Assembly: GCA_951812955.1 (NCBI GenBank)
Contig: OX638340.1
Coordinates: 3,488,001-3,552,000, forward strand
Reading direction: 5' to 3'
From: an uncultured Gemmatimonadota bacterium
GTDB taxonomy: Bacteria > JAAXHH01
DNA: 64,000 bases
Both the position numbers and the translations under genes were made by a program. This document shows, one piece after another, positions 1,343-41,082 of this stretch. Each line of letters starts with the position of its first letter. Position 1 is the first letter of the stretch. The notes beneath the pieces are model-generated. The model was not told the origin of the DNA. It searched no databases and saw only the letters and a program-made list of their open reading frames with translations.

Positions 1343-1475
1343 ACGCGCATTCTTCAGGCATATTCTTCAGGCATATTCCTCACGCACATTCCTCGTACGC
1401 ATCCCACACGCGCATCCCTTACGCGTATCCCTCTCCCGCGTGTTTCTTACGCGCAATCCCTCCCGCACATCCCTT
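1343..1475. repeat. Degenerate short-period (about 11-15 nt) tandem array between convergent genes
   Basis: Read by eye: gcgcattcttcag gcatattcttcag gcatattcctcac gcacattcctcgtac gcatcccacac gcgcatcccttac gcgtatccctctccc gcgtgtttcttac gcgcaatccctccc gcacatccctta. Confidence 0.6.
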
Positions 1476-2205
1476 AGAAATTCAATACGTTCGAACGGTA
1501 TCGCAATGGATCGTGTTCTATATATCCACCCGATAATGTGTGTTCGCCTAACGTAACATCACCGACCATTCTGTAGAGTCCGGACTCGGTCGGCGTGTAT
1601 ACGCATAGCCGGTTATCGTTGCGCACCGTTCCAGGTATGGTCGTCCAGCCGAATTCGTCCTGACGTTGCCACCTTGAATGGTGAAACTGGTATTGTACCC
1701 TCTCGTAAACAGATTGAGGATCGACTTCAATACAGGAACCGGAACCCTGCGCGGACAATTCAAAGAACTCCACGCTATCTGTAGTGACGATCAGCCTGGG
1801 CAATATGTGATAGCTTTCGTCATCGTCGGGATGGGCTGGAGCGTTTACCGTTACGGCAATGGTGATCGTGGCACTGTTCCCGCCGGGGTCGGAGGCATTG
1901 ACGGAAGCCGTAGCGCTTCCCTCGGCCAATGGCGTGATCGTCAGGACCGAACCGGACATGGCGACCGAAAGGACCGATGTATCGCTCGATTCCGCCGAGT
2001 ATCTCAGGGACCGCTCCTCGGGATCCTTGAAGGCCGTCGCGAAATCAATCATCAAACGCTCTTGCTCGGCAGTCAGCGTCTGCGCTTCAAAGGTCTCGAC
2101 AACCGTGGGCGGGAAATCCTGTGGGGGTCTTGGCTCTACGCTTTTCTCGCCGCCGCATCCCATGGCCAGGGAAACCAGCAGCATAGACATCGTAATGAAT
2201 TTCAT
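1474..2205 (-). CDS. Secreted lipoprotein with a bacterial Ig-like/cadherin-like domain, function unknown
   Basis: 243-aa ORF with lipobox MKFITMSMLLVSLAMGCGGE and an AAGGAGGGAG SD just upstream. The stretch YSAESSDTSVLSVAMSGSVLTITPLAEGSATASVNASDPGGNSATITIAVTV is Ig-like-repeat-like. Confidence 0.75.
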   Translation of the reverse strand: MKFITMSMLLVSLAMGCGGEKSVEPRPPQDFPPTVVETFEAQTLTAEQERLMIDFATAFKDPEERSLRYSAESSDTSVLSVAMSGSVLTITPLAEGSATASVNASDPGGNSATITIAVTVNAPAHPDDDESYHILPRLIVTTDSVEFFELSAQGSGSCIEVDPQSVYERVQYQFHHSRWQRQDEFGWTTIPGTVRNDNRLCVYTPTESGLYRMVGDVTLGEHTLSGGYIEHDPLRYRSNVLNF

Positions 2206-2536: not shown

Positions 2537-5500
2537 ATGTTTTTCGAGTCCCGACGGACTTTTAGGCGGTTCGGACGCGCCCGCGTCCAGTTGCTCGTTT
2601 CCCTGTCCTTAATCCTTGCCCTATCCTTGCTCGTCACGTGCGCCAGGGACAACCCCACGCAGTCCCGGTCCGCGGTCACGGCCCGGGTCGTGGTCACGCC
2701 CGAGACCACGGACCTGGCATCGGCAGGACAGTCCGTGCTTCTCAGCGCCCAGGCGCTTGACGACGCCGGCCTGGAAGTCTCGGAGACTCCTGTCACCTGG
2801 CGCAGCAGCGACCCGTCCGTTGCAAGTGTGAGCAAGAACGGCGTGGTCATCGCTACCGGCGAAGGCAGCGTGGTCATAACGGCCATGGCCGGCCAGAAGA
2901 CGGGAAGCGCGCGGGTGACGGTGTCGGATCCGGTGAGGCGGGCCCTGGTCGCCCTGTACAGGGCCACGGGCGGCGAGAACTGGAAGAACAGCGCGAACTG
3001 GCTCAGCGATGAACCCGTTCAGAGATGGCATGGGGTGACAACCGCTGCCGCGGGTAGCGCGTCGGGAACGCGTCCGCGCGCCGATGCGGCTGGCGCGGCG
3101 CTGAATCTGCCCGACAACGGCCTGTCTGGTACGATCCCGCCGGAACTGGGCGACCTGGTCCATCTGCGCGAACTGGACCTGTCCAACAACGGGTTGACGG
3201 GATCGATTCCACCGGAACTGGGCAACCTGTTCCGGCTCGAATTGCTGGATCTCTCCGGTAACCGGTTGTCCGGACCTGTCCCTGCGGAACTGGGCAATTT
3301 GTTTGTCCTGAAGTCTCTGCAACTACAGGACAACGCCGGATTATCCGGTCCCCTTCCTGTTTCTTTCTCCGGCCTGACGGGTCTGGAGACCATGGACCTG
3401 TCGGGCACGGGATTGTGCGCGCCGGCGAACGCGGGGCTTCAGAGGTGGCTCGGAGGAGTGACGACAAGACGGGGCGTCGCGAACTGCGGAGCCGTTGCCG
3501 AACAGGACCGGAAGGCGCTGATCGCGCTGTACGAGACCACGGACGGCCCGAACTGGACGAACAAGACGAACTGGCTGAGCGGGGCCGCTCTCGACCGTTG
3601 GTACGGAGTCTCCACCAACGCGGAAGGGCGTGTAACCGCCCTGCGTCTTTCCGGCAACCGGCTGTCCGGACTCATTCCGACGGCGCTGGGCAACCTAGCC
3701 GCGCTGGTTTCCCTGGACCTCGGGAGCAATGAGCTTTCCGGTACCATACCCGGGGTGTTGGGCAACCTGTCCGCGCTGGTTTCTCTGGACCTGTCCGACA
3801 ACCGGCTGTCGGGACCGATCCCGACAGTCCTGCTCACCCTACATAATCTGCAGACGCTGGACCTGTCCGGCAACCTGTTCGATCTTGAGGAGTCCACGGA
3901 CCGCGACGCCCTGGTCGCCCTGTACAACGCCACAGACGGTCCGAACTGGGTGCGAAAAGACAACTGGCTGAGCGACAGGCCGCTGGGCGAATGGTACGGG
4001 GTGACTACAGACTCTACGGGGAGGGTGACGGAACTTAATCTATGGACTCTAGATGAAGATAACAGATCCGCTAGCAATGGGTTGGCAGGTAGTATCCCGC
4101 CAGAGTTGGGCAACCTGACTAAACTGACACAGCTGGATCTTCGTCGCAATAGGTTATCGGGTAGTATACCACCGGAATTGGGCAACCTGACCAAACTGAA
4201 AACTCTGAGCCTTTCCATCAACGAGTTGTCAGGCCGCATCCCACCGGAACTGGGCAACCTGACCAACCTGATCTGGTTGTGGCTCGACCGTAATCAGTTG
4301 TCAGGCCGCATCCCACCCGAACTAGGTAGCCTGATCAAGTTGGATCAACTGTGGTTACAAGGAAATCAGTTGTCAGGCAGTATTCCATCGGAACTGGGCA
4401 ACTTGAGTAGCCTGAGGCAGCTAGCTCTTATGTCCAGCGGTTTGTCGGGCAGTATACCAGCGGAACTGGGCCGCCTGACCAACCTGATCTGGTTGTGGCT
4501 CGAAGATAATCAACTGTCAGGCCGCATCCCTTCAGAGTTGGGCAATCTGACCCGCCTGGAATCCCTGAGTCTTAACGGAAATGAGTTATCGGGCAGTCTC
4601 CCTTCGGAGTTGGGCAACCTGAGCAACCTGAAACGCCTGTATCTTTTTGACAATACCAATCTGTCGGGTCCGCTGCCCGATTCATTCACTCATCTCAATA
4701 TCGCCAGCCTGTTTCTACGTGGCACGGGGTTGTGTGTGCCGACGGACGCCGCGTTCCAGGCGTGGCTGCAGGGAATCAGGAATAAGGATGGTGTGGTGAA
4801 CTGCACGCTCGCGACGGATGATCGCGACGCCCTGGTCGCCCTGTACAACGCCACCGACGGGCCGAACTGGCGGAACGGCAGGAACTGGCTGAGTGACAGG
4901 CCGCTCGAAGAGTGGTACGGGGTCTCCACCAACGCGGAAGGACGCGTGGACAGCCTGAAGCTATTAGGAAATCGGCTATCGGGCAGCATTTCATCGGAAT
5001 TGGGTAACCTGAGCAACCTGCAAGTCCTGGATCTTCAACGCAATACTGGTTTGTCAGGCAGCATCCCGCCGGAGTTGGGCAATCTGACCAACCTGGAAGT
5101 GCTTGAATTTGATAGAGTTCCTTTGTCAGGCAGCATCCCGCCGGAGTTGGGCAAATTGAGGAACCTGCGTTATCTGGGTCTTTCCCGTAACCAGTTGTCA
5201 GGCCAGGTCCCATCAGAGTTGGGAAACCTGACCAATCTGGAAGTTCTGTGGCTTCACTTCAACGCCAATCTGTCCGGTTCTCTGCCCGCGTCACTCACTG
5301 ATCTCGATAAACTCCGAATCGTGAATCTACGAGGAACCGGGTTGTGCGCGCCGACGGACGCTGCGTTCCAGGCATGGCTGCAGGGCATAGGGAGCAAGAG
5401 TGGTGTGGTGAACTGCGACCCGGTGGGCCCTGTCCCGGGGGACGACCGCGCCGTCCTGGTCGCCCTGTACAACGCCACGGACGGGCCGAACTGGCGGAAC

Positions 5501-8500
5501 GGCACGAACTGGCTGAGTGACAGGCCGCTGAACGAGTGGTATGGGGTCGAGACCAACGCGGCGGGAAGGGTGACGGAACTGAGTCTTTTCGAAGTCGATG
5601 CAAACAACAGGCTAGTTCCCTACGGATTGTCGGGAAGCATTCCGCCGGAACTGGGCAACCTGAGCGAGTTGCAGGCACTGTATCTTCACGGCAACGAGTT
5701 GTCAGGCCGTATCCCGCCGCAACTGGGAAATCTGAGTAAACTTGTAGCCCTGGGCCTTTCCGAAAACGACTTGTCTGGCCGCATTCCGCCGGAACTGGGC
5801 AGTTTGAGTGAGCTAACACACCTGTGGCTTTATGGAAACCAGTTAACGGGCGGTGTCCCTTCGTCCCTGGGCAACCTGAGCAAACTGGAACGCCTGTATC
5901 TACATGCCAACAGCGGGCTTACCGGTCCCTTGCCTGATTCGTTCACCCAACTCAAACAACTGTTTCTACTGAGGCAGGACGGCACGGGCTTGTGCGTTCC
6001 GACAGACACCGCATTCCAGGAGTGGCTTGCTGGAATTCAAGTCAAGACAGGGGTGGTGAACTGCTCGACTCCCGACTCGGACGACCGTGCTGCCCTGATT
6101 GCGCTTTACAACGCCACCGACGGGCCGAACTGGCTTTTCAGCACGAACTGGCTGAGCGACAGGCCGCTCGAAGCGTGGTACGGGGTTACGACCGATGCGA
6201 CGGGTCGCGTTGTTCGGCTGAGTCTACCCGACAACCAGTTATCGGGTTCTATCCCCGCGCAACTGGGCAACCTGAGCAAGTTGAGAGATCTGACCTTGCG
6301 CAGCAACCCTTTATCGGGCCGTATCCCGCCTGAGTTGGGCAACCTGAACAACCTCGAACTGGTTGATTTTCAAGGCATCAGGTTTACGGGAAGTATCCCT
6401 CCGGAACTGGGTAACCTGACCAACCTGGAACATCTGTACATTACCTTCAGCCCGTTGTCAGGGAGTATCCCTCCAGAGTTGGGTAACATGACCAATCTGA
6501 AATCGCTCAACCTTTGGGGCAATCAGTTGTCAGGGCGTATTCCTTCTGAACTGGGCAACCTGACCAACCTGACATGGCTGGCTCTCAGCAACAATCAGTT
6601 GTCGGGCAGCATCCCTTCGGCCCTTGGCAACCTGAGCAATCTGCAAGGGTTGCTTCTTGACGGCAACTCCGCTCTGTCGGGTCCGCTTCCCGCTTCTTTC
6701 ACCGGTCTCGACCGGGTCGGGCGACTGGATCTTCTTGGTACGGGGCTGTGCGTGCCAACGGACGCAGCACTCCAGGCATGGCTCCAGGGGATCGGAACCA
6801 AGAGCGGTGTCGAGAACTGCACGCCCTCCGACTCGGACGACCGCGCCGCCCTGGTCGCCCTGTATAACGCGACCGACGGACCGAACTGGACGAGAAACGA
6901 CAACTGGCTGAGCGACCGGCCGCTGGGAGAGTGGTACGGGGTGACCACCGACTCTGAGGGTAGAGTGACACAGCTGCGGTTCGTAGGTGCAGATGGTTTA
7001 AGTGGCAACGGATTGTCGGGTTCGATCCCCCCGGAACTGGGAAGCCTGAGCGACCTGACATGGCTGAGCCTTCAGCATAACCAGTTGTCGGGCAGCATCC
7101 CTTCTACACTGGGAGACCTGAATAACCTGAGATGGCTGCAACTTTACAATAACCAGTTGTCAGGCAGCATCCCATCTGCACTGGGTAACCTGAGCAATCT
7201 GCAAGAGCTGACCCTTTACCGTAACCAGTTGTCGGGCAGCATCCCATCTGCGCTGGGCAACCTGGGCAACCTGCAAACCCTGGCTCTTAGAAACAACCAG
7301 TTGTCGGGCAGCATTCCATCTGCGCTGGGCAACCTGAGCAACCTGCAAACCCTGGATCTTCAAGTAAACACGGGCCTGACCGGTCCTCTGCCAGCCTCCC
7401 TCACAAATCTCGATGAACTGAATTACCTGTCTCTAAACGGCACAGGGTTGTGTGCACCGACGGAAGCGGCGTTCCAGTCATGGCTCGACGGGATACCAAA
7501 CAAGAGCGTTGTGGTGAACTGCTTCGTGGAGCAGGAAGACCGTGACGCCCTGGTCGCACTGTACAACGCCACGGATGGACCGAACTGGATGAACAACACG
7601 AACTGGCTGAGCGACGACCCGATTGGCAATTGGTACGGGGTGACCACCAACGCCGAAGGGAGGGTAACACGTCTTGGCCTGTACACTATAGTCAACAATA
7701 CATTTACCAGCAACGGTTTGTCCGGTCGCATCCCGCCGGAACTGGGCCGGCTGAGTAAGCTGGAAGTCCTTCGGCTTAGTCCAAACGAGTTGTCCGGTTC
7801 GATCCCGTCGGAGCTGAGCAACCTGAGCAACTTGACACGGCTTGAACTTGGCGGTAATGAGTTGTCGGGCAGCATTCCGCCGGAGTTGGGCAACCTGAGC
7901 AAACTGACAAGTCTGGGTCTTGCCGTCAATGAGTTGTCAGGTAGCATCCCGCCCGAGTTGGGTAATCTGACCAACCTGGAAGAATTGTATCTTCGCAACA
8001 ACACCGGCCTGTCGGGTCCTCTGCCCCATTCGTTCACTCATCTCGAAGATCTCAACGAACTGCTTATGGATGGAACGGGACTGTGCGTGCCGGCGGACGC
8101 CGAGTTTCAGGCGTGGCTAGACGGTATTCAAGGCAGGAAATGGGGGGTGGTGAATTGCGTCTCGCCTTCACCGGACCGTGACGCCCTGGTCGCACTGTAC
8201 AACGCCACGGATGGACCGAACTGGATGAACAACACGAACTGGCTGAGCGACAGGCCGATCGGAGAGTGGTACGGCGTGAGCGTAGACGCCGAAGGGAGCG
8301 TAACAAGCCTTCGCCTGTTCACTGATTCAACATCCAGCAACGCGTTTACCGGCAACGGGTTGTCGGGCAGCATCCCGCCGGAACTGGGTAACCTGGGCAG
8401 CTTACAATCGCTGGATCTTCGCTTCAACAGGTTGTCGGGGAGCATCCCTTCGGCCCTGGGCAACCTGGGGAACTTACAATCGCTGGATCTTCGCTTCAAT

Positions 8501-9769
8501 GTGTTGTCGGGCAGCATCCCTTCGGCCCTGGGCAACCTGGGCAACCTGACACACCTGTATCTCGAAAACAACCAGTTATCGGGCAGCATCCCGCCGGAAC
8601 TGGGCAACCTGGGCAACCTGACACTCCTGTCCCTGTTCTATAATGAGTTGTCGGGCAGTATCCCTTCGGCCCTGGGCAACCTGGGCAACCTGACACACCT
8701 GTATCTTGACGACAACCAGTTGTCGGGCAGCATCCCTTCGGCCCTGGGCAACCTGGGGAACCTGACGCGCCTGATACTTGACAACAACCAGTTGTCGGGG
8801 AGCATCCCGGGGAATCTGGCCCGTCTGCTCGACCTGGAATACCTGTGGCTTGACGGCAACGCGGATCTTACCGGGAGCCTGCCTGTATTTTTCGCCGATC
8901 TTTTAGATAACCTTCGTTCCCTTCGTCTGGAAGGCACGGGACTTTGCGCGCCAGGGACCGCCGATTTCCAGCGTTGGCTCCGCGGGATTGAAGAAAAGAA
9001 CGGTGTGGTGAACTGCGCCGCACAAGATCGGTCCGCCCTGGTCGCCCTGTACAACGCGACCAACGGCCCGAATTGGGAGCGCGACGACAACTGGCTGAGC
9101 AATAGACCCCTTGGAGAGTGGTACGGTGTCAGAACCGACGGAATCGGACGCGTGAGCAGTCTGAATCTCAGAGGCAACCAGTTATCGGGCAGCATCCCGT
9201 CGGAGTTGGGCAGCCTGAACAACCTGGAATCTCTGTGGCTTTCCGGTGGTTTGTCGGGTAGCATTCCATCATCCCTGGGCAACCTGAGCAATCTGGAGCT
9301 CCTGTATCTTGTCAGCCCGTCCAGCGGCGGGTTGTCAGGCAGTATTCCATCATCCCTGGGCAACCTGGGCAACCTGGAACTCCTGGTGCTTGCCGGCCGC
9401 CAGTTTGGCAGCATCCCTTCGTGGATGGGCAACCTGGGCGACCTGGAGCAATTGGTGTTACACGGTGTATCGGGCAGTATCCCGTCAGCACTGGGCAACC
9501 TGAGCAACTTGAAATCACTAAATCTTGCTTACAACGACGGGTTGATCGGCAGCATCCCACCGGCACTGGGCAACCTGGGCAACCTGACATCTATGAATCT
9601 TTTCGACAGCTCCAACCTGTCCGGTCCCCTTCCTACCTCGCTTACCCGTCTTGATCTTCTTGATACCCTGGACATTCGATTTACAGGCTTATGTGCGCCT
9701 CGGATCGCCTCGTTCCAGGCGTGGCTCCGGGGGATTGACGACAAACGGGGTGTGGTGAACTGCCAATAA
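2537..9769 (+). CDS. Giant surface lipoprotein (2410 aa): signal/lipobox, one Big_2 Ig domain, then ten concatenated LRR solenoid modules (nine with a two-Cys C-terminal cap)
   Basis: AAGGAG SD before the ATG and lipobox LLVTCARDNPTQS. Big_2-like stretch VVVTPETTDLASAGQSVLLSAQALDDAG...ITAMAGQKTGSARVTV. There are ten N-cap motifs (ALVALYNATDGPNW..NWLSDRPLGEWYGVTTD..GRVTEL). They are followed by 24-residue units L..L..L.L..N.LSG.IP.ELGNL and caps GTGLCAP.DAAFQAWLQGI....GVVNC. Confidence 0.92.
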   Translation: MFFESRRTFRRFGRARVQLLVSLSLILALSLLVTCARDNPTQSRSAVTARVVVTPETTDLASAGQSVLLSAQALDDAGLEVSETPVTWRSSDPSVASVSKNGVVIATGEGSVVITAMAGQKTGSARVTVSDPVRRALVALYRATGGENWKNSANWLSDEPVQRWHGVTTAAAGSASGTRPRADAAGAALNLPDNGLSGTIPPELGDLVHLRELDLSNNGLTGSIPPELGNLFRLELLDLSGNRLSGPVPAELGNLFVLKSLQLQDNAGLSGPLPVSFSGLTGLETMDLSGTGLCAPANAGLQRWLGGVTTRRGVANCGAVAEQDRKALIALYETTDGPNWTNKTNWLSGAALDRWYGVSTNAEGRVTALRLSGNRLSGLIPTALGNLAALVSLDLGSNELSGTIPGVLGNLSALVSLDLSDNRLSGPIPTVLLTLHNLQTLDLSGNLFDLEESTDRDALVALYNATDGPNWVRKDNWLSDRPLGEWYGVTTDSTGRVTELNLWTLDEDNRSASNGLAGSIPPELGNLTKLTQLDLRRNRLSGSIPPELGNLTKLKTLSLSINELSGRIPPELGNLTNLIWLWLDRNQLSGRIPPELGSLIKLDQLWLQGNQLSGSIPSELGNLSSLRQLALMSSGLSGSIPAELGRLTNLIWLWLEDNQLSGRIPSELGNLTRLESLSLNGNELSGSLPSELGNLSNLKRLYLFDNTNLSGPLPDSFTHLNIASLFLRGTGLCVPTDAAFQAWLQGIRNKDGVVNCTLATDDRDALVALYNATDGPNWRNGRNWLSDRPLEEWYGVSTNAEGRVDSLKLLGNRLSGSISSELGNLSNLQVLDLQRNTGLSGSIPPELGNLTNLEVLEFDRVPLSGSIPPELGKLRNLRYLGLSRNQLSGQVPSELGNLTNLEVLWLHFNANLSGSLPASLTDLDKLRIVNLRGTGLCAPTDAAFQAWLQGIGSKSGVVNCDPVGPVPGDDRAVLVALYNATDGPNWRNGTNWLSDRPLNEWYGVETNAAGRVTELSLFEVDANNRLVPYGLSGSIPPELGNLSELQALYLHGNELSGRIPPQLGNLSKLVALGLSENDLSGRIPPELGSLSELTHLWLYGNQLTGGVPSSLGNLSKLERLYLHANSGLTGPLPDSFTQLKQLFLLRQDGTGLCVPTDTAFQEWLAGIQVKTGVVNCSTPDSDDRAALIALYNATDGPNWLFSTNWLSDRPLEAWYGVTTDATGRVVRLSLPDNQLSGSIPAQLGNLSKLRDLTLRSNPLSGRIPPELGNLNNLELVDFQGIRFTGSIPPELGNLTNLEHLYITFSPLSGSIPPELGNMTNLKSLNLWGNQLSGRIPSELGNLTNLTWLALSNNQLSGSIPSALGNLSNLQGLLLDGNSALSGPLPASFTGLDRVGRLDLLGTGLCVPTDAALQAWLQGIGTKSGVENCTPSDSDDRAALVALYNATDGPNWTRNDNWLSDRPLGEWYGVTTDSEGRVTQLRFVGADGLSGNGLSGSIPPELGSLSDLTWLSLQHNQLSGSIPSTLGDLNNLRWLQLYNNQLSGSIPSALGNLSNLQELTLYRNQLSGSIPSALGNLGNLQTLALRNNQLSGSIPSALGNLSNLQTLDLQVNTGLTGPLPASLTNLDELNYLSLNGTGLCAPTEAAFQSWLDGIPNKSVVVNCFVEQEDRDALVALYNATDGPNWMNNTNWLSDDPIGNWYGVTTNAEGRVTRLGLYTIVNNTFTSNGLSGRIPPELGRLSKLEVLRLSPNELSGSIPSELSNLSNLTRLELGGNELSGSIPPELGNLSKLTSLGLAVNELSGSIPPELGNLTNLEELYLRNNTGLSGPLPHSFTHLEDLNELLMDGTGLCVPADAEFQAWLDGIQGRKWGVVNCVSPSPDRDALVALYNATDGPNWMNNTNWLSDRPIGEWYGVSVDAEGSVTSLRLFTDSTSSNAFTGNGLSGSIPPELGNLGSLQSLDLRFNRLSGSIPSALGNLGNLQSLDLRFNVLSGSIPSALGNLGNLTHLYLENNQLSGSIPPELGNLGNLTLLSLFYNELSGSIPSALGNLGNLTHLYLDDNQLSGSIPSALGNLGNLTRLILDNNQLSGSIPGNLARLLDLEYLWLDGNADLTGSLPVFFADLLDNLRSLRLEGTGLCAPGTADFQRWLRGIEEKNGVVNCAAQDRSALVALYNATNGPNWERDDNWLSNRPLGEWYGVRTDGIGRVSSLNLRGNQLSGSIPSELGSLNNLESLWLSGGLSGSIPSSLGNLSNLELLYLVSPSSGGLSGSIPSSLGNLGNLELLVLAGRQFGSIPSWMGNLGDLEQLVLHGVSGSIPSALGNLSNLKSLNLAYNDGLIGSIPPALGNLGNLTSMNLFDSSNLSGPLPTSLTRLDLLDTLDIRFTGLCAPRIASFQAWLRGIDDKRGVVNCQ

Positions 9770-9798
9770 ATACCGTGTAAGAGATTCCCGGGAGTAAC

Positions 9799-11454
9799 AT
9801 GCTCAGAATGAACCAACGAATTCTGCTGATATTCATTGGTCTGTCGTTGTTTACATTGACTTCCTGTGGCAAGGACAGTCCGACCGAACCCGAGCTGCCT
9901 GAATCACCACCTCCCCCACCCATACCCTCCCGGATCGTGATTACCCCTTCGTCGGTGACGCTCGATGCCATAGGACAGACTGGTCAGTTGACAGCTCAGG
10001 TATTCGATCAGAACAACGCGCTCATGAGCAGCGCGGTAGTCACCTGGACCGGCAGCGATGACGCCGTAGCGACAGTCAGCACTGCCGGATTGGTGACGGG
10101 GGTCGGAAATGGAAGCGCCAGCATCACGGCCAGGTCGGGCGGCTCTTCCGCGAGCGTAAACGTAACGGTCATGCAAACTGCCCACGGTATAGCCATCGAA
10201 CCGCAGACGGCGACGCTCACGGCAATCGGCGAGACCATGCAGTTGACCGCGACCGTACTGGACCGGAACGAACAGCCCGTGGCTGGCGTTGCCGTCTCAT
10301 GGACCAGTAGCGACACAGGCGTTGCGACGGTCGACGATGAGGGACTGGTGACGGCGCTCAGTAGCGGCGAGGTCCGGATCACTGCGTCGCACGGCGGCAT
10401 ATCTGACACTGTCCAGATCAAAGTAGATATCGCCAGTCCCGACAGAGGTACATTGATTACGCTCTACAACGCCCTTGACGGACCGAACTGGACGCACAGT
10501 GCCAACTGGCTATCCAACCGGCTTCTGGGTACATGGCACGGTGTGGAGACCGACGATAATGGAAGAGTCACTAGTCTGAGTCTTTCAGACAACAACCTCA
10601 GCGGCAGTATTCCGCCGGAGTTAGGGAACCTGACCAACCTACAAGAGCTGGATCTTCACGAAAACGCGCAGTTGTCTTGTAGCATTCCGCCGGAGTTGGG
10701 GAACCTGACCAACCTGCGACGACTAAGTTTATTTTCCACTCCGTTTTTACCGGCGATCTTCCCGCCAAGTTGGGATCCTGTACCCAACCCGTTGTGCAGC
10801 ATCCCTGCGGAGTTGGGGAACCTGACCAACCTGCAGGAACTGCGTCTTGGCCTCCACGATTTATCTGGTGGCATCCCTCCGGAGTTGGGGAACCTGACCA
10901 ACCTGCAAAGGTTGGACCTCAGCTTCAACGCATTGTCTGGTAGTATTCCATCGGAGTTGGGGAACCTGGCCAACCTGTATTGGTTGGACCTCAGCATCAA
11001 CGCATTGTCTGGTAGCATTCCGTCGAAGTTGGGGAACCTGGCCAACCTGCAAATACTAAATCTTAACCTCAACGGTTTATTTGGTGGCATCCCTCCTGAG
11101 TTGGGAAACTTGTCCAACCTGCAAGCGTTGGAGCTTGGTTTCAACCGGCTATCTGGTGGCATCCCTCCTGAGTTGGGGAACTTGGCCAACCTGAAAGCGT
11201 TGGAGCTTGGTTTCAACAGATTGTCCGGGAGCGTTCCACCGGAATTGGGAAACCTCTCCGAACTCACGCATCTGTCATTGAGTTACAATGAGGACCTGAC
11301 GGGTCCTCTGCCCGACACATTCACCAGCCTCGACAACCTCCAGTGGCTGATTCTGGATTCTACCGGTTTGTGCGTGCCGTCGGACGCCGCGTTCCAGACG
11401 TGGTTAGAGCATATTCTGGTTGCCCCTGAAGAGGTGTACTGCGAAGCGATGTAG
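9799..11454 (+). CDS. Lipoprotein with two Big_2 domains and one capped LRR module (551 aa)
   Basis: Starts 30 nt after the previous stop. Lipobox LFTLTSCGKDSPTEP. Two Big_2-like repeats (IVITPSSVTLDAIGQTGQLTAQVFDQNN..., IAIEPQTATLTAIGETMQLTATVLDRNE...). N-cap LITLYNALDGPNWTHSANWLSNRLLGTWHGVETDDNGRVTSL, then LRRs, then cap STGLCVPSDAAFQTWLEHILVAPEEVYC. Confidence 0.9.
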   Translation: MLRMNQRILLIFIGLSLFTLTSCGKDSPTEPELPESPPPPPIPSRIVITPSSVTLDAIGQTGQLTAQVFDQNNALMSSAVVTWTGSDDAVATVSTAGLVTGVGNGSASITARSGGSSASVNVTVMQTAHGIAIEPQTATLTAIGETMQLTATVLDRNEQPVAGVAVSWTSSDTGVATVDDEGLVTALSSGEVRITASHGGISDTVQIKVDIASPDRGTLITLYNALDGPNWTHSANWLSNRLLGTWHGVETDDNGRVTSLSLSDNNLSGSIPPELGNLTNLQELDLHENAQLSCSIPPELGNLTNLRRLSLFSTPFLPAIFPPSWDPVPNPLCSIPAELGNLTNLQELRLGLHDLSGGIPPELGNLTNLQRLDLSFNALSGSIPSELGNLANLYWLDLSINALSGSIPSKLGNLANLQILNLNLNGLFGGIPPELGNLSNLQALELGFNRLSGGIPPELGNLANLKALELGFNRLSGSVPPELGNLSELTHLSLSYNEDLTGPLPDTFTSLDNLQWLILDSTGLCVPSDAAFQTWLEHILVAPEEVYCEAM

Positions 11455-12002: not shown

Positions 12003-12449
12003 ATGAAAAAGACACTGATCGCAGGAATGATCGTGACGGTTGCCGCGATCCTGACGGGATGCATGGCCTCGCAGCACAGAAGGGCCGTGCAGGATGATTC
12101 CGCCGACCGGGTGACCGTAGGGACGGTACAGCAATCGATCCGGGTGGGCATGAGCGGCGCCGAGGTCGCGGGCGTGCTCGGATCGCCCAACATCGTGTCG
12201 ACCGATGAAGAGCGTCGCGAAGTCTGGATCTATGACAAGATTTCGACGGAGTCCGTGCGTTCGTCCAGCGAAGGCGGGGTCCTGTCGCTCATTTTCGTGG
12301 ATCTGGCCGATGTATTCACCGGTGGGGCGGGCGGGCTTTCCGGATCGTCCGGCGCCGAGTCCACGTCCCAGCGGACGCTCACGGTGATTATAAAGTTCGA
12401 TGAAGAAAAACTGGTGAGAGACTTCGCGTACCACACGTCGCGATTCTGA
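12003..12449 (+). CDS. Small lipoprotein, BamE/SmpA-OmlA-like fold suspected
   Basis: ATG at 12003 preceded by AGGAGA. Lipobox MKKTLIAGMIVTVAAILTGCMAS. The pattern IRVGMSGAEVAGVLGSPN...EVWIYDK resembles the SmpA_OmlA pattern. The upstream part of the track ORF (from 11856) has no signal peptide or SD. Confidence 0.65.
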   Translation: MKKTLIAGMIVTVAAILTGCMASQHRRAVQDDSADRVTVGTVQQSIRVGMSGAEVAGVLGSPNIVSTDEERREVWIYDKISTESVRSSSEGGVLSLIFVDLADVFTGGAGGLSGSSGAESTSQRTLTVIIKFDEEKLVRDFAYHTSRF

Positions 12450-12606: not shown

Positions 12607-13164
12607 ATGGGTTGGAAAGCTATCTGCCAACTTACGGGACCAATCCTGGCTGTCCTGGTCTTGACCGGTTGTTTGAGCGGCGAATCCGGAAATCCGTTTG
12701 AACTGACTCCAGAACATCTGCAAAAGAGGGAGATGCGGACCAGGATGTATGAAGGGATATCCGAGGTGGGTATGTTGTCCGCGTGTGCCGGAGTGCTGCA
12801 GGACCTGGGTTTCACCATCGACGAGAGCGAGTCAAAACTCGGTGTGATTGTCGGGTCGAAGAGAAGTGACGCGACGGAGGCGGGGCAGGAGGCCTGGTGG
12901 CTGGTAAAGGCGTTGTTGACTTACGGGTTGGCGGCACTTACGGACGAGACGGATGACTACCAGAGATTCCGGGCGTCTGTAGTCGTCCGTCCGGCTTCGA
13001 CGATTACATCAGAAAACCACTACGTAAGCGTGACCTTCCAGCGGACCGTCTGGGATACAGACGACAAAGTATCGAAACAGGAAACCCTGGAAGTGCCCGA
13101 AATCCACGGGGATTTCTTCGATCGGCTTTCGAAATCGGTTTTTTTGGAAGCCCAGGGTATCTAA
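12607..13164 (+). CDS. Lipoprotein, intact member of a local three-paralog family, function unknown
   Basis: ATG at 12607 after AAGGGGG. Lipobox ILAVLVLTGCLSGE. Shares the motifs ..AGVLQDLGF.IDE...LGVI.. and ..FF..LSKS.FLEAQ with the two downstream decayed copies. Confidence 0.7.
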   Translation: MGWKAICQLTGPILAVLVLTGCLSGESGNPFELTPEHLQKREMRTRMYEGISEVGMLSACAGVLQDLGFTIDESESKLGVIVGSKRSDATEAGQEAWWLVKALLTYGLAALTDETDDYQRFRASVVVRPASTITSENHYVSVTFQRTVWDTDDKVSKQETLEVPEIHGDFFDRLSKSVFLEAQGI

Positions 13165-13259: not shown

Positions 13260-13600
13260 ATGATCAGTAAGGAAGGACGGAAACTCAACCGGTTCCAACG
13301 TGGCCAATGTTTGATTCTTTTTCTGGCGTTTATGATCATGGCCGGATGCGGGGGCGGTGCATCGTTGGAAGCTTTCGTTCCGACGGAGGAAACGCTGCGG
13401 AAAAGGGTGCTGACCACCAGGCAGTTCGATGGTATTGCGGAAGCAGACCTTTTGTCGGCGTCTGCGGGTGTGCTTCAGGACCTGGGTTTTAACGTCGATG
13501 AGAAGCCATTCATTCAAAAAGCGTAGACGATCCGGAACTGTACGGCGAGTTCTTTGAACTGCTTTCGAAATCGGTATTTCTGGAAGGACAGAAACTATGA
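13260..13600 (+). pseudogene. Truncated paralog of 12607-13164 (internal deletion plus frameshift)
   Basis: The N-terminal part, MISKEGRK...IMAGCGGG...SAGVLQDLGFNVDEK, stops at 13524-13526. The family C-terminal tail DDPELYGEFFELLSKSVFLEGQKL* continues in another frame to 13600. The central ~90 aa of the family are missing. Confidence 0.7.
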
Positions 13601-27445: not shown

Positions 27446-28756
27446 TTGCGAGTTTCGGAAGGCGCGCGGCAGGATATTCGTCCGTCGATCGGGATTCCGC
27501 GGCTGTGCCGGCGTCGTACCGTAATACGAGAAAACAGTCCGGTCCGGCTGCAGGTCTCACGGCGCGTACCGGGATCGTGGCTCGTGCCGGGATCGTGGTT
27601 CTTGCCGGGATCGTGGTTCTTGCCGCTCGTTGTGCTGGCCGTGGTCCTTGCGGGTTGCCGGTCAGGTCGGCTGCTGGGGGAAAACTACGACGCCAGCGGG
27701 GACCCGTTTATCCTCAGGGCCGCCTCCGCGGAAGCCATAGCCGTTGGTCCGGCCGACACGTCCGGTGTCGCATATCGCGTCATCCTGGTCGGCGACACAG
27801 GGGAACCTGTCGAGGAGGATCCCACCCTTGCCGCGATCGGACGCTGGGCGGTTCCGCGCGACCGTGCCGCCGTCGTGTTGCTGGGCGACAATATCTATCC
27901 GTCGGGGCTGGAAGCACATGACAGGGTATGGGGCGAATCCATACTGAGGCAGCAACTCGAGACTACCTCGGCGCTTAGGGTTTTCGTGCCGGGCAATCAC
28001 GATTGGGGTTCCTCTCCGGGAGACTGGTCGGAAGATCGCGTCATTGCGCAACAAGAATTCGTACTGGCCTGGTCCGAGGGCGAAGTGGCCTTTCTACCCC
28101 GCGACGGATGTGCAGGTCCGGCGGTACGCGAACTGCTCCGTCCCGGGGACGGGATGGAACGGGGGATCGCGGTCGTCGCCATCGACTGGATGCCATGGTT
28201 TACTACGGCCGCGGACACGAGCGGATGCCCGCCGGGGGATTTCGGGAAACGGATAGACGACGCCTTCGCGGCGCTGACGAATCATTTCGTAATCGTGGCG
28301 AGTCATTACCCGCTACGATCGGGTGGCGCCCACGCCGGATTGGGCCGCGGACTGCTCATCGACACCCTCGTTAACATTTATCACCTGGTGCGGCCACGAT
28401 CGATCCTCAGGCTGTACCATCCGCGGTATGCGGAATTGGCAAGGCAGGTGAAAGACGCGCTCGAAAGACATCGTCCTCTCGTCTATGCCGCGGGCCACGA
28501 TCACAACTTGCAACTTTTCGAAGGGGATGAAACCGCCCTGATGCACGTCGTGAGCGGATCGGGATCCGCCGGGAAAGTGGAACGTGTGACCGCCGTGCCC
28601 GGGACGATTTTCGCGCACGCGGTTTCCGGATTCGTAGTGCTCGATTTCGTCACCCGCAACGGGATCGGCACCCCCGTAGTACGCGTCGTAAGAACGGAGC
28701 GGGAAACGCCCGTGTTCCAGATGCGCGTTCCGCTGCAGGACGACCGGGACCGGTAA
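27446..28756 (+). CDS. Calcineurin-like metallophosphoesterase, probable lipoprotein
   Basis: Motifs ILVGDTGEP, VVLLGDNIYPSGL, VPGNHDW, ASHYPLRSGGAHA and AAGHDHNLQLF. Lipobox LAVVLAGCRSG. The start is uncertain: TTG at 27446 directly after the previous stop, with alternative GTG/TTG codons inside the PGSW(L/F)(V/L) x3 repeat. Confidence 0.8.
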   Translation: MRVSEGARQDIRPSIGIPRLCRRRTVIRENSPVRLQVSRRVPGSWLVPGSWFLPGSWFLPLVVLAVVLAGCRSGRLLGENYDASGDPFILRAASAEAIAVGPADTSGVAYRVILVGDTGEPVEEDPTLAAIGRWAVPRDRAAVVLLGDNIYPSGLEAHDRVWGESILRQQLETTSALRVFVPGNHDWGSSPGDWSEDRVIAQQEFVLAWSEGEVAFLPRDGCAGPAVRELLRPGDGMERGIAVVAIDWMPWFTTAADTSGCPPGDFGKRIDDAFAALTNHFVIVASHYPLRSGGAHAGLGRGLLIDTLVNIYHLVRPRSILRLYHPRYAELARQVKDALERHRPLVYAAGHDHNLQLFEGDETALMHVVSGSGSAGKVERVTAVPGTIFAHAVSGFVVLDFVTRNGIGTPVVRVVRTERETPVFQMRVPLQDDRDR

Positions 28757-31580: not shown

Positions 31581-31811
31581 TTCAGTCTCCTGGTCTATAC
31601 CTTCAAATAGGCTGGATCCAGTTAACATGAATGATCTATGATTCTTGTAGCGTTACGTCCTTACAGTAGTTTAACGTCGACAGGCAACACAGGGAAGTGT
31701 TACTTACAAGCGTACCACAAACACAACATTTTATGAAGACCGGATGAGGTTTGTCGCGCCGATGAGCGGTCTCATGCCCACCTGGCCGCAGGATACGGTG
31801 AAACTTGACCG

Positions 31812-31909: not shown

Positions 31910-32524
31910 ATGATCGGAAAACTACGCCATGTCGTTTCGCAGTTGATGATGACCTCCATGCCGATACGTATGATCTCCGTGCCACTGCTGCTAACCGGGT
32001 TTATGATGTGGTCGGTTGTTGGCTGCGCGGAGACTGCGCAGGACGCATCGTCGGATCCGCAGGAGGCTCCTCAGCCGCCCGCGATGTCCGCGGTGCCGGA
32101 TGTGCCTGAGGCGGCATCGCCACCGGCCATGCCTTCGCACGAGCCGGTCTACCTCACCTCGGAGGCCACGGAGAGCATGAACCTGCCCTTTTCGGATGCC
32201 GTGCGCACGGGGCACCTGCTGTTCCTCTCCGGCCAGATCGGAATGGTACCCGAAACGAAGGAACTGGCGCCGGGGGGCATACAGGCAGAGGCCCGTCAGA
32301 CCATGGAAAACATAAAGACGGTGCTCGAGGCCAACGGATCCTCCATGGACCGGGTGATCAAGGCGACGGTCATGCTCGCGGACATCTCCGAGTGGCCGGC
32401 ATTCAACGAGGTGTACGTCACGTACTTTCCCGGCCACAAGCCGGCCCGCAGCGCCTTCGCCGGCAGCGGACTGGCCTTCGGCGCGCGGTGCGAAGTCGAG
32501 GTGATCGCCACGGTGGGAGAGTAG
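31910..32524 (+). CDS. RidA/YjgF-family protein with an N-terminal export (lipoprotein-like) signal
   Basis: ATG at 31910 after GGAG. ISVPLLLTGFMMWSVVGCAE is lipobox-like. The core DAVRTGHLLFLSGQIG...GGIQAEARQTMENIKTVLEANGSSMDRVIKATVMLADI...FNEVY..YF....PARSAF is classic RidA. In-frame starts at 31805 and 31871 are also possible. Confidence 0.8.
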   Translation: MIGKLRHVVSQLMMTSMPIRMISVPLLLTGFMMWSVVGCAETAQDASSDPQEAPQPPAMSAVPDVPEAASPPAMPSHEPVYLTSEATESMNLPFSDAVRTGHLLFLSGQIGMVPETKELAPGGIQAEARQTMENIKTVLEANGSSMDRVIKATVMLADISEWPAFNEVYVTYFPGHKPARSAFAGSGLAFGARCEVEVIATVGE

Positions 32525-36433: not shown

Positions 36434-36643
36434 TTGTTTACAATATAATCATATTTAATTCTTATAATTTCACATTTAAGCCACGAGTTATTGATCTTAG
36501 ATTTGATAAGTTAAGACTCCAGCGTTAGTATTATGTTGAAAAATCCAGTTTGATTCACATATTGAATTTATCAATCTCTGAAACAACTGACCCGTTCGTT
36601 TGTGAATACAGGGGCAGCATTTTCTTCCAAAGAATGTACCTCG

Positions 36644-39482: not shown

Positions 39483-39784
39483 ACGGTTTCACCAGGTACG
39501 CTTCATCTCAATGGTCTTCATCTTCAGATAGTGTCAACCAGATCTGCGTACGAAACACGGCTATCGAAAACCTGGCTGGCATGGAGGAATTGTCATGTTC
39601 GGTAACTGGATTTCGAGAAGCGTCAGACTTTCGGGAACGTGACCATTGTAAGTCCGGCTGAGAAGAGCTTCAGATGCAGTGGGTCTTCTTGAGGCGGTGA
39701 CCTCATTGACACGCGTTCCGTTCAGGATTGACGGTCCATCCTTCCGGACACGTGTAACCGAGCCTGCTCGGCAGGAGGTATGAA

Positions 39785-40336
39785 ATGCGTATTTTACTTA
39801 TGATGATCGTCCTGGTCGCATTGGCCTGTGGCGATGACGATATGCCGACGGCCCCAACTCCCACACCGGAACCGGATCCTGCCGAGAAGCTGATCGGCAC
39901 GTGGAAATACACGGGGAACGATTTCGATACCAAACTGGCCGCCAACGTGCGGAATTACCTGATCGGCGAGGGCCATACTGCGAGCGAGGTCGACAAGGCG
40001 GTATCTGGCGCCCTTGGTGAACTCGACTTGGCGTTAGCCCGTACCTTTAACTTTAGGTCAGACGGAACGGTGATTGTCGACAGCGAACCTCCTTACCGGT
40101 ACCAGGTGTCCGGCAATCGAATAATCATCACGACTTCGGATGGTGAGACTCTTTTCTTGGGGGGTGGTGAGACTCTTTCCGGGGAATACGCCGTTACGGA
40201 CACCGCGCTTACCCTGCATTTTCCAGTAGCCCCGCTGCTGGCGACTGTTGTACCGGAGGACGAAGAGGAAGCGGAACTGATGAGGACCATATATATGGGG
40301 ATAGAGGTCTTGACTATGTATTTCTCGAGGCAGTGA
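39785..40336 (+). CDS. Hypothetical lipoprotein
   Basis: AGGAGG SD and lipobox MRILLMMIVLVALACGDDD. No recognisable motifs. Confidence 0.7.
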   Translation: MRILLMMIVLVALACGDDDMPTAPTPTPEPDPAEKLIGTWKYTGNDFDTKLAANVRNYLIGEGHTASEVDKAVSGALGELDLALARTFNFRSDGTVIVDSEPPYRYQVSGNRIIITTSDGETLFLGGGETLSGEYAVTDTALTLHFPVAPLLATVVPEDEEEAELMRTIYMGIEVLTMYFSRQ

Positions 40337-40922: not shown

Positions 40923-41082
40923 TTTTACGTAGAGGATCCACCTTAAGTCTTACAACCTGTGGTCCATACTTGGTGATAAGTTTGCCATTTTAACATTCTT
41001 TAAACACAAACGTGCTACACGCGAGGAAAACAGTTCGACCTGCGGTGTAAAAACACCGAGCCGTTTGTCGTAACTGCCGATC

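What the first reader, a model, noticed from the sequence alone, without database searches (positions are those of the whole stretch)
2627..2665. Family-specific mature N-terminus C-G-(K/R)-D-(S/T)-P-T after the lipobox: possible surface-lipoprotein export signal
The seven giants begin as follows:
- LLVTCARDNPTQS (Cys codon 2639)
- LTSCGKDSPTEP (9865)
- LFTCGKDSPTNS (20244c)
- LVSCGGGGSTTP (22082c)
- LLVTCGRDTPTQS (36734)
- LVTCGKDSPTQP (41173)
- LVRCGRDSPTKP (46133)
The other lipoproteins in the window do not share this tail (GCGGEKS, GCMASQ, GCLSGE, ACGDDD, GCRSGR). A Lys at +3 and an acidic residue at +4 resemble the C-x-K-(D/E)-type lipoprotein export signal reported for surface-exposed lipoproteins of Bacteroidota. 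Conservation at this position across otherwise diverged paralogs suggests a sorting function rather than simple ancestry.
Basis: partly seen in the sequence, partly recalled or inferred. Interest (0 to 1): 0.5.

Follow-up and report, generated by a model that had tools for sequence, protein, structure and literature searches.

The report
Conserved lipoprotein N-terminal tag C-G-K-D-S-P-T
Six giant adhesin-like lipoproteins of an uncultured sponge-associated bacterium all start their mature chain with the same seven residues, which selection has kept fixed; this looks like a lineage-specific address or processing tag, but it is not the Bacteroidota surface-export signal it was compared with.

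Summary
Six of the seven large lipoprotein ORFs carry C-[GA]-[KR]-D-[STN]-P-T directly after a lipobox Cys (6 DNA matches, 0 in 100 shuffles). None of the eight other lipoproteins in the window does. The window is 86-90% identical to a MAG labelled Gemmatimonadetes, from a lineage whose MAG names point to sponge and coral hosts.

The heptapeptide belongs to one inherited N-terminal module: signal peptide, CGKDSPT, Pro-rich linker, Big_2 domain. In related genome tiles, 55 of 62 motif proteins have Big_2 starting 14-46 residues after the Cys. None of 26 lipoproteins without a Big_2 domain has the motif. Ser+5 is always an AGY codon (65/65, background 33%), so the motif has a single origin.

It is also under strong amino-acid selection. 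Among the window paralogs identity is 78% in the motif, 24% in the signal peptide and 20% in the linker. About half of the identical motif codons differ synonymously, so recent duplication is excluded.

It fails the defining feature of the Bacteroidota LES. All 62 copies have one acidic residue and net charge 0, and 'KD' alone was non-functional experimentally.

A lineage-specific sorting tag for surface or vesicle display is the most likely function, but this is untested.

The parts
2639..2659 (+). g1 mature N-terminus C-A-R-D-N-P-T (relaxed copy); lipobox L-V-T at 2630-2638
9865..9885 (+). g2 mature N-terminus C-G-K-D-S-P-T; lipobox L-T-S
20224..20244 (-). g3 mature N-terminus C-G-K-D-S-P-T; lipobox L-F-T
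36734..36754 (+). g5 mature N-terminus C-G-R-D-T-P-T; lipobox L-V-T
41173..41193 (+). g6 mature N-terminus C-G-K-D-S-P-T; lipobox L-V-T
46133..46153 (+). g7 mature N-terminus C-G-R-D-S-P-T; non-canonical Arg at -1 (46130-46132), also Arg in two orthologs
22062..22082 (-). g4 tail C-G-G-G-G-S-T. This Big_2+LRR lipoprotein lacks the motif, and five syntenic orthologs keep the same G-rich tail
2537..9769 (+). g1, 2410 aa: signal peptide, motif, Big_2, long LRR array
9799..11454 (+). g2, 551 aa: signal peptide, motif, Pro linker, 2 Big_2, LRR
14815..20364 (-). g3, about 1830-1849 aa: signal peptide, motif, Big_2, CARDB repeats, M66-like peptidase region
20382..22145 (-). g4, 587 aa: Big_2, PKD/Big_9 and LRR lipoprotein without the motif
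36602..38980 (+). g5, 792 aa from GTG 36602 (ATG at 36644 gives a typical n-region): motif, Big_2, LRR, CARDB
41083..46005 (+). g6, 1640 aa: motif, long Pro linker, 2 Big_2, LRR, M66-like C-terminus
46064..50176 (+). g7, 1370 aa: motif, vestigial first Big_2 strand (ARITVTP), LRR, M66-like C-terminus
12003..12449 (+). Comparator: small lipoprotein TGC|MASQH with a weak BamE-domain hit; no motif
39785..40336 (+). Comparator: small lipoprotein LAC|GDDDMPTAPTP. It has an acidic tail that meets the Bacteroidota 'two or more acidic' rule; no motif
1474..2205 (-). Comparator: lipoprotein MGC|GGEKSVEP (Big_9-like); no motif
27446..28756 (+). Comparator: metallophosphoesterase lipoprotein LAGC|RSGRLL; no motif
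31958..32524 (+). Comparator: Rid-family lipoprotein VGC|AETAQD; no motif
12607..13164 (+). Comparator: lipoprotein TGC|LSGESG; no motif
13260..13526 (+). Comparator: small lipoprotein AGC|GGGASLE; no motif

Best explanation
C-G-[KR]-D-[ST]-P-T is the start of the mature chain of one expanded family of lipoproteins. The family belongs to an uncultured lineage whose MAG names point to sponge and coral hosts, and whose MAGs are variously labelled Gemmatimonadota or Latescibacterota. Every member shares an inherited N-terminal module: signal peptide with an L-x-[TSA] lipobox, the heptapeptide, a Pro-rich stalk and a Big_2 domain. Different C-terminal payloads follow (LRR arrays, CARDB repeats, M66-like peptidase).

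Shown: the motif has a single origin and is old. Amino-acid-level purifying selection has held it almost invariant while the signal peptide, the linker and the Big_2 domain diverged.

Inferred: after Sec export and lipidation of the Cys, the six residues next to the lipid anchor are read by an envelope factor. They most likely act as a lineage-specific sorting tag. This tag would send the adhesin-like, host-interaction proteins to the outer face of the outer membrane, and possibly into vesicles. The Pro-rich stalk would hold the binding domains away from the cell. Other lipoproteins of the same genome lack the tag and would stay periplasm-facing. By this reading it works like a lipoprotein export signal, but it is not a member of the acidic Bacteroidota LES family, and the factor that reads it is unknown.
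For: The motif is present and non-random: 6 matches against 0 expected.

It is family-specific in the window: 6 of 7 giants carry it and 0 of 8 other lipoproteins do.

Conservation peaks at the motif. Among window paralogs identity is 78% in the motif, 24% in the signal peptide and 20% in the linker. Information content peaks at +1 to +4 in 73 non-redundant homolog N-termini.

The pattern is all-or-none. In an unbiased Big_2-only HMMER search, 89 lipoprotein-like N-termini show 0-1 mismatch to GKDSPT in 13 cases and 4 or more mismatches in 74, with only 2 in between.

It is not recent duplication. 48% of identical motif codons differ synonymously, and Gly, Lys, Pro and Thr third positions match background codon usage.

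There are many copies per genome.

The carriers are typical surface or host-interaction proteins: Big_2, LRR, CARDB, M66-like peptidase, behind Pro-rich linkers.

A BamE-like lipoprotein in the window, a type that faces the periplasm in Proteobacteria, lacks the tag.

There is precedent that residues +2 to +6 after the lipidated Cys decide surface exposure and vesicle loading (PMC5080379; PMC6222051).

Sponge-symbiont repeat proteins are thought to reach the host, yet most lineages lack classical secretion systems (PMC8163846).
Against: There is no localisation data of any kind, and the organism is uncultured.

The motif never occurs apart from the Big_2-led module. Its association with 'surface-type' proteins therefore cannot be separated from shared descent.

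g4 and its five orthologs are also Big_2+LRR lipoproteins but keep CGGGGS instead. Either the tag is not needed for this class, or g4 goes to a different location.

The motif has net charge 0 and one acidic residue, unlike every experimentally validated export signal.

Lys +3 has also been proposed as an inner-membrane retention cue.

No candidate translocon was identified. The neighbouring OMP_b-brl and Omp85-family genes are only circumstantial.

Asp and Ser codons (GAC, AGT) are more conserved than protein-level selection requires. This hints that something else may also be constrained.
Confidence: 0.4

Rival explanations
1. Maturation context, not sorting. The heptapeptide is kept because this family uses an unusual lipobox (Thr, or even Arg, at -1). 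It would need a specific +2 to +7 context for efficient recognition by Lgt, signal peptidase II or the N-acyltransferase, or by a dedicated paralog of one of them. Under this view the tag decides whether and how the protein is lipidated and cleaved, not where it goes.
For: The conserved block spans the cleavage site, as L-x-[TSA]|C-G-K-D-S-P-T. Residue -1 is Thr 26, Ala 25, Ser 13 and Gly 6 in homologs. Non-motif lipoproteins in the window use Gly or Ala, except g4 which uses Ser. Arg at -1 is kept in three orthologs that also keep the tag. The usual lipobox definition allows only G, A or S at -1 (from my own knowledge of PROSITE PS51257 and DOLOP).
Against: Copies with canonical Ala or Ser at -1 keep the tag just as strictly. 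Lipoprotein-processing enzymes are not known to read as far as +7. No second Lsp or Lgt gene was looked for, because only 8-kb tiles were available.
Confidence: 0.2
2. Modification or release site. D-S-P-T next to the anchor is a sequon for O-glycosylation or phosphorylation, or a cleavage site. Cleavage would let a protease shed the Big_2/LRR ectodomain from its lipid anchor into the sponge matrix.
For: Ser and Thr are invariant and flanked by Pro. Shedding would explain how LRR proteins reach host cells without secretion systems, an open question noted in PMC8163846. An M66-like peptidase domain is present in g3, g6 and g7.
Against: The motif does not fit the Bacteroidota O-glycosylation sequon D-(S/T)-(A/I/L/V/M/T), because Pro occupies the third position (sequon quoted from my own knowledge). 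No glycosyltransferase or protease is linked to it. A site only 3-6 residues from the membrane surface is poorly accessible.
Confidence: 0.15
3. Inner-membrane retention (Lol avoidance). The tag keeps these proteins in the cytoplasmic membrane, in the way that +2 Asp does in E. coli or +3 Lys with +4 Ser is proposed to do in P. aeruginosa.
For: Lys +3 matches the P. aeruginosa proposal (PMC6469965). Acidic residues near Cys favour retention in several species (same paper).
Against: Gly, not Asp, is at +2, and Asp, not Ser, is at +4. Proteins of 500-2400 aa with LRR, Big_2 and CARDB domains on long Pro-rich stalks are not typical inner-membrane periplasmic proteins. The P. aeruginosa rule is itself weak (5 and 8 of 40 inner-membrane lipoproteins).
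Confidence: 0.1
4. It is a true member of the Bacteroidota LES family, C-X-K-(D/E)2-X, recognised by the same still unidentified flippase.
For: Lys/Arg at +3 and Asp at +4 match the two most conserved positions of the C. canimorsus logo (K +3 72%, D +4 48%). From my own knowledge, Gemmatimonadota and Latescibacterota are placed in the same FCB superphylum as Bacteroidota.
Against: A second acidic residue is absent in 62 of 62 copies and net charge is 0. SiaC carrying AKDAA was not surface exposed, and a net negative charge was required. The B. thetaiotaomicron signal CS(D/E)2 needs both Asp residues.
Confidence: 0.05
5. No function. The identity reflects recent duplication or gene conversion among paralogs, or a DNA- or RNA-level element that happens to lie there.
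For: g2 and g6 have identical motif codons, and g1 and g5 are a close pair. GAC (96% against 60% background) and AGT (80% of AGY against 31%) are over-conserved at synonymous sites.
Against: 48% of identical motif codons differ synonymously. Thr+7 uses all four codons and Gly+2 all four, near background frequencies, across 67 copies from more than 15 genomes. Flanking codons are diverged.
Confidence: 0.05

Closest known systems
Bacteroidota lipoprotein export signal (LES): C. canimorsus C-X-K-(D/E)2-X / QKDDE; B. fragilis SDDDD; F. johnsoniae SDDFE; B. thetaiotaomicron CS(D/E)2 (PMC5080379, PMC6222051)
   Same: It is a short motif at +2 to +6 directly after the lipidated Cys. It has Lys at +3 and Asp at +4, as in the C. 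canimorsus consensus. It is found on large surface-type proteins and absent from other lipoproteins of the same genome. The factor that reads it is unknown in both cases.
   Different: It has only one acidic residue and net charge 0; 'KD' alone was non-functional in the reporter assay. S-P-T replaces the (D/E) run. It is almost invariant rather than a loose compositional bias. It is confined to one homologous N-terminal module rather than spread over unrelated protein families. The organism is not a Bacteroidota.
Lol-avoidance (inner-membrane retention) signals: E. coli +2 Asp; P. aeruginosa +3 Lys / +4 Ser (PMC6469965)
   Same: The position is next to Cys+1. Gly +2 with Lys +3 fits the pattern described for P. 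aeruginosa, whose MexA has Gly at +2.
   Different: Asp, not Ser, is at +4, and there is no Asp at +2. The carriers are giant adhesin-like proteins, not efflux adaptors or secretion-system parts.
Borrelia surface-lipoprotein tether determinants (cited in PMC11784454)
   Same: A disordered N-terminal tether next to the anchor influences surface localisation against periplasmic localisation.
   Different: In Borrelia, surface display is reported to be the default, and no fixed motif is described there. Here a fixed heptapeptide marks a subset of lipoproteins.
Neisseria Slam-dependent surface lipoproteins
   Same: Large host-interaction lipoproteins are displayed on the cell surface.
   Different: From my own knowledge, Slam substrates are recognised through a C-terminal barrel domain, and the Slam (DUF560) gene lies next to them. 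No such domain or gene was seen in the ORFs scanned here.

Membership tests
Bacterial lipoprotein (signal peptidase II substrate) | Positively charged n-region followed by an uncharged hydrophobic h-region that ends at the Cys | tested here: met
   All seven giants meet this, as do 62 motif proteins in related tiles.
Bacterial lipoprotein (signal peptidase II substrate) | Lipobox [LVI]-[ASTVI]-[GAS]-C, with a small G, A or S residue at -1 | tested here: inconclusive
   Residue -3 is Leu and -2 is V, T or F, which fits. Residue -1 is Ser only in g2; it is Thr in g1, g3, g5 and g6 and Arg in g7. Homologs show T 26, A 25, S 13 and G 6. The invariant Cys and the alternation of T, S and A argue for lipidation, but standard rules would reject more than half of the copies.
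Bacterial lipoprotein (signal peptidase II substrate) | Demonstrated acylation of Cys+1 | not testable with these tools
   This needs mass spectrometry or palmitate labelling.
Bacteroidota LES | Motif located at +2 to +6 immediately after Cys+1 | tested here: met
Bacteroidota LES | Lys at +3 (C. canimorsus) or a polar residue at +2 | tested here: met
   K or R is at +3 in all 67 copies counted.
Bacteroidota LES | At least two acidic residues, (D/E)2, and net negative charge within the six residues after Cys | tested here: not met
   All 62 copies have exactly one acidic residue and net charge 0. The criterion comes from PMC5080379, PMC12578637 and PMC6222051.
Bacteroidota LES | Present on surface-exposed lipoproteins and absent from periplasm-facing ones | not testable with these tools
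   No localisation data exist. The only indirect point is that a BamE-like lipoprotein lacks the tag.
Bacteroidota LES | Sufficient to drive a periplasmic reporter lipoprotein to the surface | not testable with these tools
   This requires an experiment.
Bacteroidota LES | Host organism belongs to Bacteroidota | tested here: not met
   The window is 86-90% identical at the nucleotide level to MAG APA_bin_41, labelled Gemmatimonadetes. Related MAGs are labelled Gemmatimonadota or Latescibacterota.
Lol-avoidance signal | Asp at +2 (E. coli type) | tested here: not met
   Residue +2 is Gly, or Ala in g1.
Lol-avoidance signal | Lys +3 together with Ser +4 (P. aeruginosa type) | tested here: inconclusive
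   Lys or Arg at +3 is present, but +4 is Asp and Ser is at +5. The rule itself is weak.
Slam-dependent surface lipoprotein | Adjacent Slam (DUF560) outer-membrane gene | tested here: not met
   No DUF560 hit was found in the 27 window ORFs scanned with Pfam. The neighbouring outer-membrane genes are OMP_b-brl and Omp85 family. Not every ORF was scanned.
Bacteroidota O-glycosylation sequon D-(S/T)-(A/I/L/V/M/T) | Third residue aliphatic or Thr | tested here: not met
   The sequence reads D-S-P. The sequon definition is from my own knowledge and was not checked in a paper here.

The most novel reading that the evidence does not exclude
CGKDSPT, together with its unusual Thr or Arg at -1, is the recognition element of a previously undescribed lipoprotein export or release route outside Bacteroidota. 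A dedicated envelope machine would read a neutral, Pro-containing heptapeptide rather than an acidic patch. It would deliver eukaryote-like LRR and Ig-domain proteins to the surface or vesicles of sponge symbionts. This would answer how such symbionts present repeat proteins to the host without classical secretion systems.
Probability: 0.15. Interest if true: 0.8.

Novelty: new variant of a known kind. Interest (0 to 1): 0.45.

Why it matters
Short signals next to the lipidated Cys decide where diderm lipoproteins end up. Outside Proteobacteria, Spirochaetes and Bacteroidota the rules are essentially unknown, and even in Bacteroidota the flippase has not been identified (PMC12578637, PMC12889592).

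This case offers a nearly invariant, easily searched tag in a lineage related to Gemmatimonadota. Present-or-absent tags of this kind are well suited to phylogenetic profiling for the machinery that reads them.

The finding also shows that the LRR 'eukaryote-like' proteins of this symbiont lineage are predicted lipoproteins. That gives a concrete route to the cell surface or vesicles for proteins whose delivery has been a puzzle (PMC8163846).

If the tag turns out to be only a maturation context, it still documents an unusual Thr or Arg lipobox at -1 that standard predictors would miss.

Tried and rejected
- Exact-protein lookup of a window protein found nothing on record. The source was instead inferred from nucleotide identity to tiles of the genome scan.
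The K-only pattern was used. Copy numbers per genome are therefore lower bounds, and the seeded tiles cannot be used to measure motif conservation. For that I used the window paralogs, the non-seeded flanking genes and a Big_2-only HMMER search.
- NCBIfam holds no N-terminal sorting-signal model that matches the giants' N-termini.
- Full-text search for CGKDSPT, GKDSPT and CGKDS found nothing relevant.
- The genes upstream of g4-g3 were examined as possible translocon partners (OMP_b-brl 23600-23025 and an unknown signal-peptide protein 22979-22272), as was the Omp85-family ORF 28830-31628. They gave only generic hits, so I make no claim about them.
- Recent duplication or gene conversion was rejected on synonymous-site data.
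- Convergent, independent acquisition of the tag by unrelated proteins was rejected. Ser is AGY-only, and the motif is linked exclusively to the Big_2-led module.
- Sporadic CGKD[ST]PT lipoproteins in Bacteroidota, KSB1, Aminicenantes, Kingella and others are single copies. By my rough estimate they are compatible with chance among millions of lipoproteins, so I did not treat them as relatives.
Full report
OBSERVATION. Bases 2627-2665 encode LLVTCARDNPTQS. Six of them read C-[GA]-[KR]-D-[STN]-P-T directly after a positively charged n-region, a hydrophobic h-region and an L-x-x lipobox. The seventh, g4, reads CGGGGSTTP. A degenerate DNA pattern for the heptapeptide hits these six places and nothing else in 64 kb, against 0.00 expected in 100 shuffles. 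A simple lipoprotein screen found the other lipoproteins of the window, and none of them has the tail. Their cleavage regions are MGC|GGEKS, TGC|MASQH, TGC|LSGES, AGC|GGGAS, AGC|RSGRL, VGC|AETAQ and LAC|GDDDM. One addition: the motif proteins have Thr (four), Ser (one) or Arg (one) at lipobox position -1. The other lipoproteins have Gly or Ala, except g4 with Ser.

WHAT THE PROTEINS AND THE ORGANISM ARE. The giants combine Big_2 Ig-like domains with long LRR arrays, CARDB repeats and an M66-like peptidase region. The window also encodes an OMP beta-barrel protein and an Omp85-family protein, so the organism is diderm. Homologs that carry a name are 'MAG Gemmatimonadota/Gemmatimonadetes'. The window is 86-90% identical at the nucleotide level to contigs of MAG APA_bin_41, labelled Gemmatimonadetes. 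It is about 80% identical to several unclassified 3.5-4 Mb MAG chromosomes. MAGs of this group labelled Latescibacterota, Gemmatimonadetes or unclassified share 84-93% identity over kilobases. This is therefore one lineage with inconsistent phylum labels. That the MAGs come from sponges and corals rests on their names (APA, IRC, RHO, SB, Plut) and on the literature on such MAGs (PMC8163846, PMC12993501). I did not verify the sample metadata.

DISTRIBUTION. About 57 tiles belong to this lineage, with at least 5-9 hits per chromosome. In these, the match always follows a signal peptide. The remaining tiles are out-of-frame chance hits or single lipoproteins in unrelated phyla.

THE MOTIF BELONGS TO ONE MODULE. 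I predicted lipoproteins in all tiles from this lineage plus the window. Of 62 motif proteins, 55 have a Big_2 domain starting 14-46 residues after the Cys. One more has its first detected Big_2 at residue 144. The other six had no Big_2 hit. Four are g3 orthologs, which I take to carry a diverged Big_2 (not tested), as window g3 has one at residue 46. The other two are g7 and its ortholog, which retain only the first strand. Ten further Big_2-led lipoproteins that were not seeded by the pattern carry degenerate versions: CGRDNPA, CGQGSPT, CGGDSST, CGKGSST and the CGGG[GE]S of the g4 orthologs. None of the 26 predicted lipoproteins without a Big_2 domain has the motif. The heptapeptide is thus part of one N-terminal module: signal peptide, tag, Pro-rich linker, Big_2.

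ANCESTRY AND SELECTION. Codon usage separates the two questions.
- Single origin. Ser+5 is AGT or AGC in 65 of 65 copies, although TCN makes up 67% of Ser codons in long ORFs of the same tiles (P about 3e-32). The two non-Ser variants, AAC and ACT, are one step from AGY. The copies therefore descend from a single ancestor rather than arising by convergence.
- Old age. The third positions of Gly+2, Lys+3, Pro+6 and Thr+7 are mixed at roughly genomic frequencies. Among the six window paralogs, 48% of the identical motif codons differ synonymously. The copies are old, and recent duplication or gene conversion is excluded.
- Selection on the protein. Among the same paralogs, amino-acid identity is 78% in the motif, 24% in the 20 signal-peptide residues before it and 20% in the 20 linker residues after it. 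In 73 non-redundant homolog N-termini, information content peaks at +1 to +4.
- All-or-none pattern. An exhaustive HMMER search used only the two Big_2 domains as query, so it was not biased towards the motif. It returned 89 lipoprotein-like N-termini. Mismatches to GKDSPT were 0-1 in 13 cases and 4 or more in 74, with only two in between.
Ancestry explains where the tag is found. Purifying selection on the peptide explains why it has not decayed.

COMPARISON WITH THE KNOWN EXPORT SIGNAL. In C. canimorsus the LES consensus is QKDDE at +2 to +6, and the optimum is C-X-K-(D/E)2-X. KDD exports the SiaC reporter, whereas 'only KD' does not, and a net negative charge is needed (PMC5080379). In B. 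thetaiotaomicron the signal is CS(D/E)2, and both Asp residues are essential for surface exposure and vesicle loading (PMC6222051). Current practice calls a LES when two or more of the six residues after Cys are acidic (PMC12578637). All 62 copies of the present tag have exactly one acidic residue and net charge 0. Six of the 36 non-motif lipoproteins do meet the acidic rule, among them window 39785-40336 CGDDDMPT and the flanking CGGDDNP and CGGDDDNP proteins. The tag therefore shares position, Lys+3 and Asp+4 with the C. canimorsus logo but fails the defining feature. It is not a member of that family. Lys+3 has also been proposed as part of an inner-membrane retention signal in P. aeruginosa (PMC6469965). 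Sequence resemblance alone therefore cannot indicate the direction of sorting.

MOST LIKELY FUNCTION. A strictly conserved peptide abutting the lipid anchor is found only on large Ig/LRR/CARDB/peptidase proteins with Pro-rich stalks. It is absent from small lipoproteins of the same genome, including a BamE-like one (a weak hit of 22.7 bits against a cut-off of 23.2). This is best read as a recognition element that acts after lipidation. I consider a lineage-specific sorting tag for outer-surface or vesicle display the most likely reading (about 0.4). The main reasons are what the carriers are, and the fact that sponge symbionts are thought to present repeat proteins to the host while mostly lacking classical secretion systems (PMC8163846).

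The rivals are as follows:
- A maturation context tied to the unusual Thr or Arg lipobox at -1 (0.2). Arg at -1 is kept in three orthologs of g7 that also keep the tag.
- A modification or shedding site (0.15).
- Inner-membrane retention (0.1).
- True Bacteroidota-type LES (0.05).
- No function, or a nucleic-acid element (0.05).

None of these can be settled without localisation data. The main caveat for the sorting reading is that the tag never occurs outside one homologous module. In addition, g4 and its orthologs belong to the same protein class but stably lack the tag.

NOVELTY AND SCORE. I found no paper or curated model describing this motif. It is a new, sharply defined variant of a known kind of feature, namely a lipoprotein N-terminal determinant, in a phylum-level group where nothing is known about lipoprotein sorting. 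Its function is still hypothetical. Interest is 0.45. The most novel reading, a new neutral-tag lipoprotein export or release route that delivers eukaryote-like proteins, has a probability of about 0.15.

Noticed in passing
window 9874-9879, 20230-20235 (minus strand), 41182-41187 and the same codons in L001-L110 tiles: Inside the motif the Asp and Ser codons are over-conserved at synonymous sites. GAC is used in 64 of 67 copies (background 60%). AGT is used in 52 of 65 (background 10% of Ser, 31% of AGY). Neighbouring Gly, Lys, Pro and Thr third positions follow genomic usage. The AGY-only pattern shows a single origin. The excess of AGT and GAC is unexplained; a rare-codon pause or a nucleotide-level constraint are possibilities.
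   Followed up: partly
window 46130-46132 (g7); L045 1-1140 (minus strand); P0271: Arg occupies lipobox position -1 (LVRC|GRDSPT, LARC|GKDSPT, LVRC|GRDSPT) in three orthologs that are 60-76% identical. Thr is the commonest -1 residue in the whole family. Standard lipobox rules, which require G, A or S at -1, would miss more than half of these proteins.
   Followed up: partly
window 20382-22145 (minus strand); L019, L043, L053, L057, L084: g4, a Big_2+LRR lipoprotein encoded immediately upstream of g3 on the same strand, keeps a different tail, C-G-G-G-[GE]-S, in the window and five syntenic orthologs. It is a stable tag-less member of the same protein class and a natural internal control for any localisation experiment.
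   Followed up: partly
window 22272-23600 (minus strand): An 8-strand-type OMP_b-brl protein (23600-23025) and an unknown 235-aa signal-peptide protein (22979-22272) lie directly upstream of g4-g3 on the same strand. Nucleotide similarity to tiles L019, L069 and L110 shows the arrangement recurs. A role as an anchor or partner for the giants is possible but unsupported.
   Followed up: partly
window 14815-15150 (minus strand), 45670-46005, 49840-50176: g3, g6 and g7 share a conserved C-terminal domain of about 100 aa (...ITLSGPEGVA...DGDR...PEPGLEIVVSPGVPD..SW*) after an M66-like peptidase region. It has no Pfam or NCBIfam match of its own and is not a T9SS or other known C-terminal sorting domain.
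   Followed up: no
L002 1328-2036; L045 6277-6645; L069 4754-5056; L095 6417-6836: Two families of small (about 90-120 aa) Cys-rich lipoproteins recur next to the tagged giants in several genomes. Their tails are acidic or Gly/Asn-rich (CGGDDNPV..., CGGDDDNPV..., CNNDNGGG..., CSGDSGV...). They have no Pfam match.
   Followed up: no
L001, L008, L076, L103 (and others): MAGs labelled Latescibacterota, Gemmatimonadota/Gemmatimonadetes, Chloroflexota/Caldilineaceae or just 'bacterium' share 84-93% nucleotide identity over kilobases around the tagged genes. The public phylum labels of this lineage are inconsistent, or some contigs are mis-binned.
   Followed up: partly
window 2537-11454, 20382-22145, 36602-50176: All six LRR 'eukaryote-like' proteins in this window are predicted lipoproteins. 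This suggests the lipoprotein pathway as a delivery route for such proteins in this symbiont lineage. Robbins et al. 2021 note that most sponge symbionts lack classical secretion systems.
   Followed up: partly
window 33412-34791: A SelA-like (PLP-dependent) protein has an N-terminus resembling a twin-arginine signal followed by a Cys (SRRFNRRGFLKIGALAGVAGVAAANC|SGLDG). It may be a Tat-exported lipoprotein.
   Followed up: no
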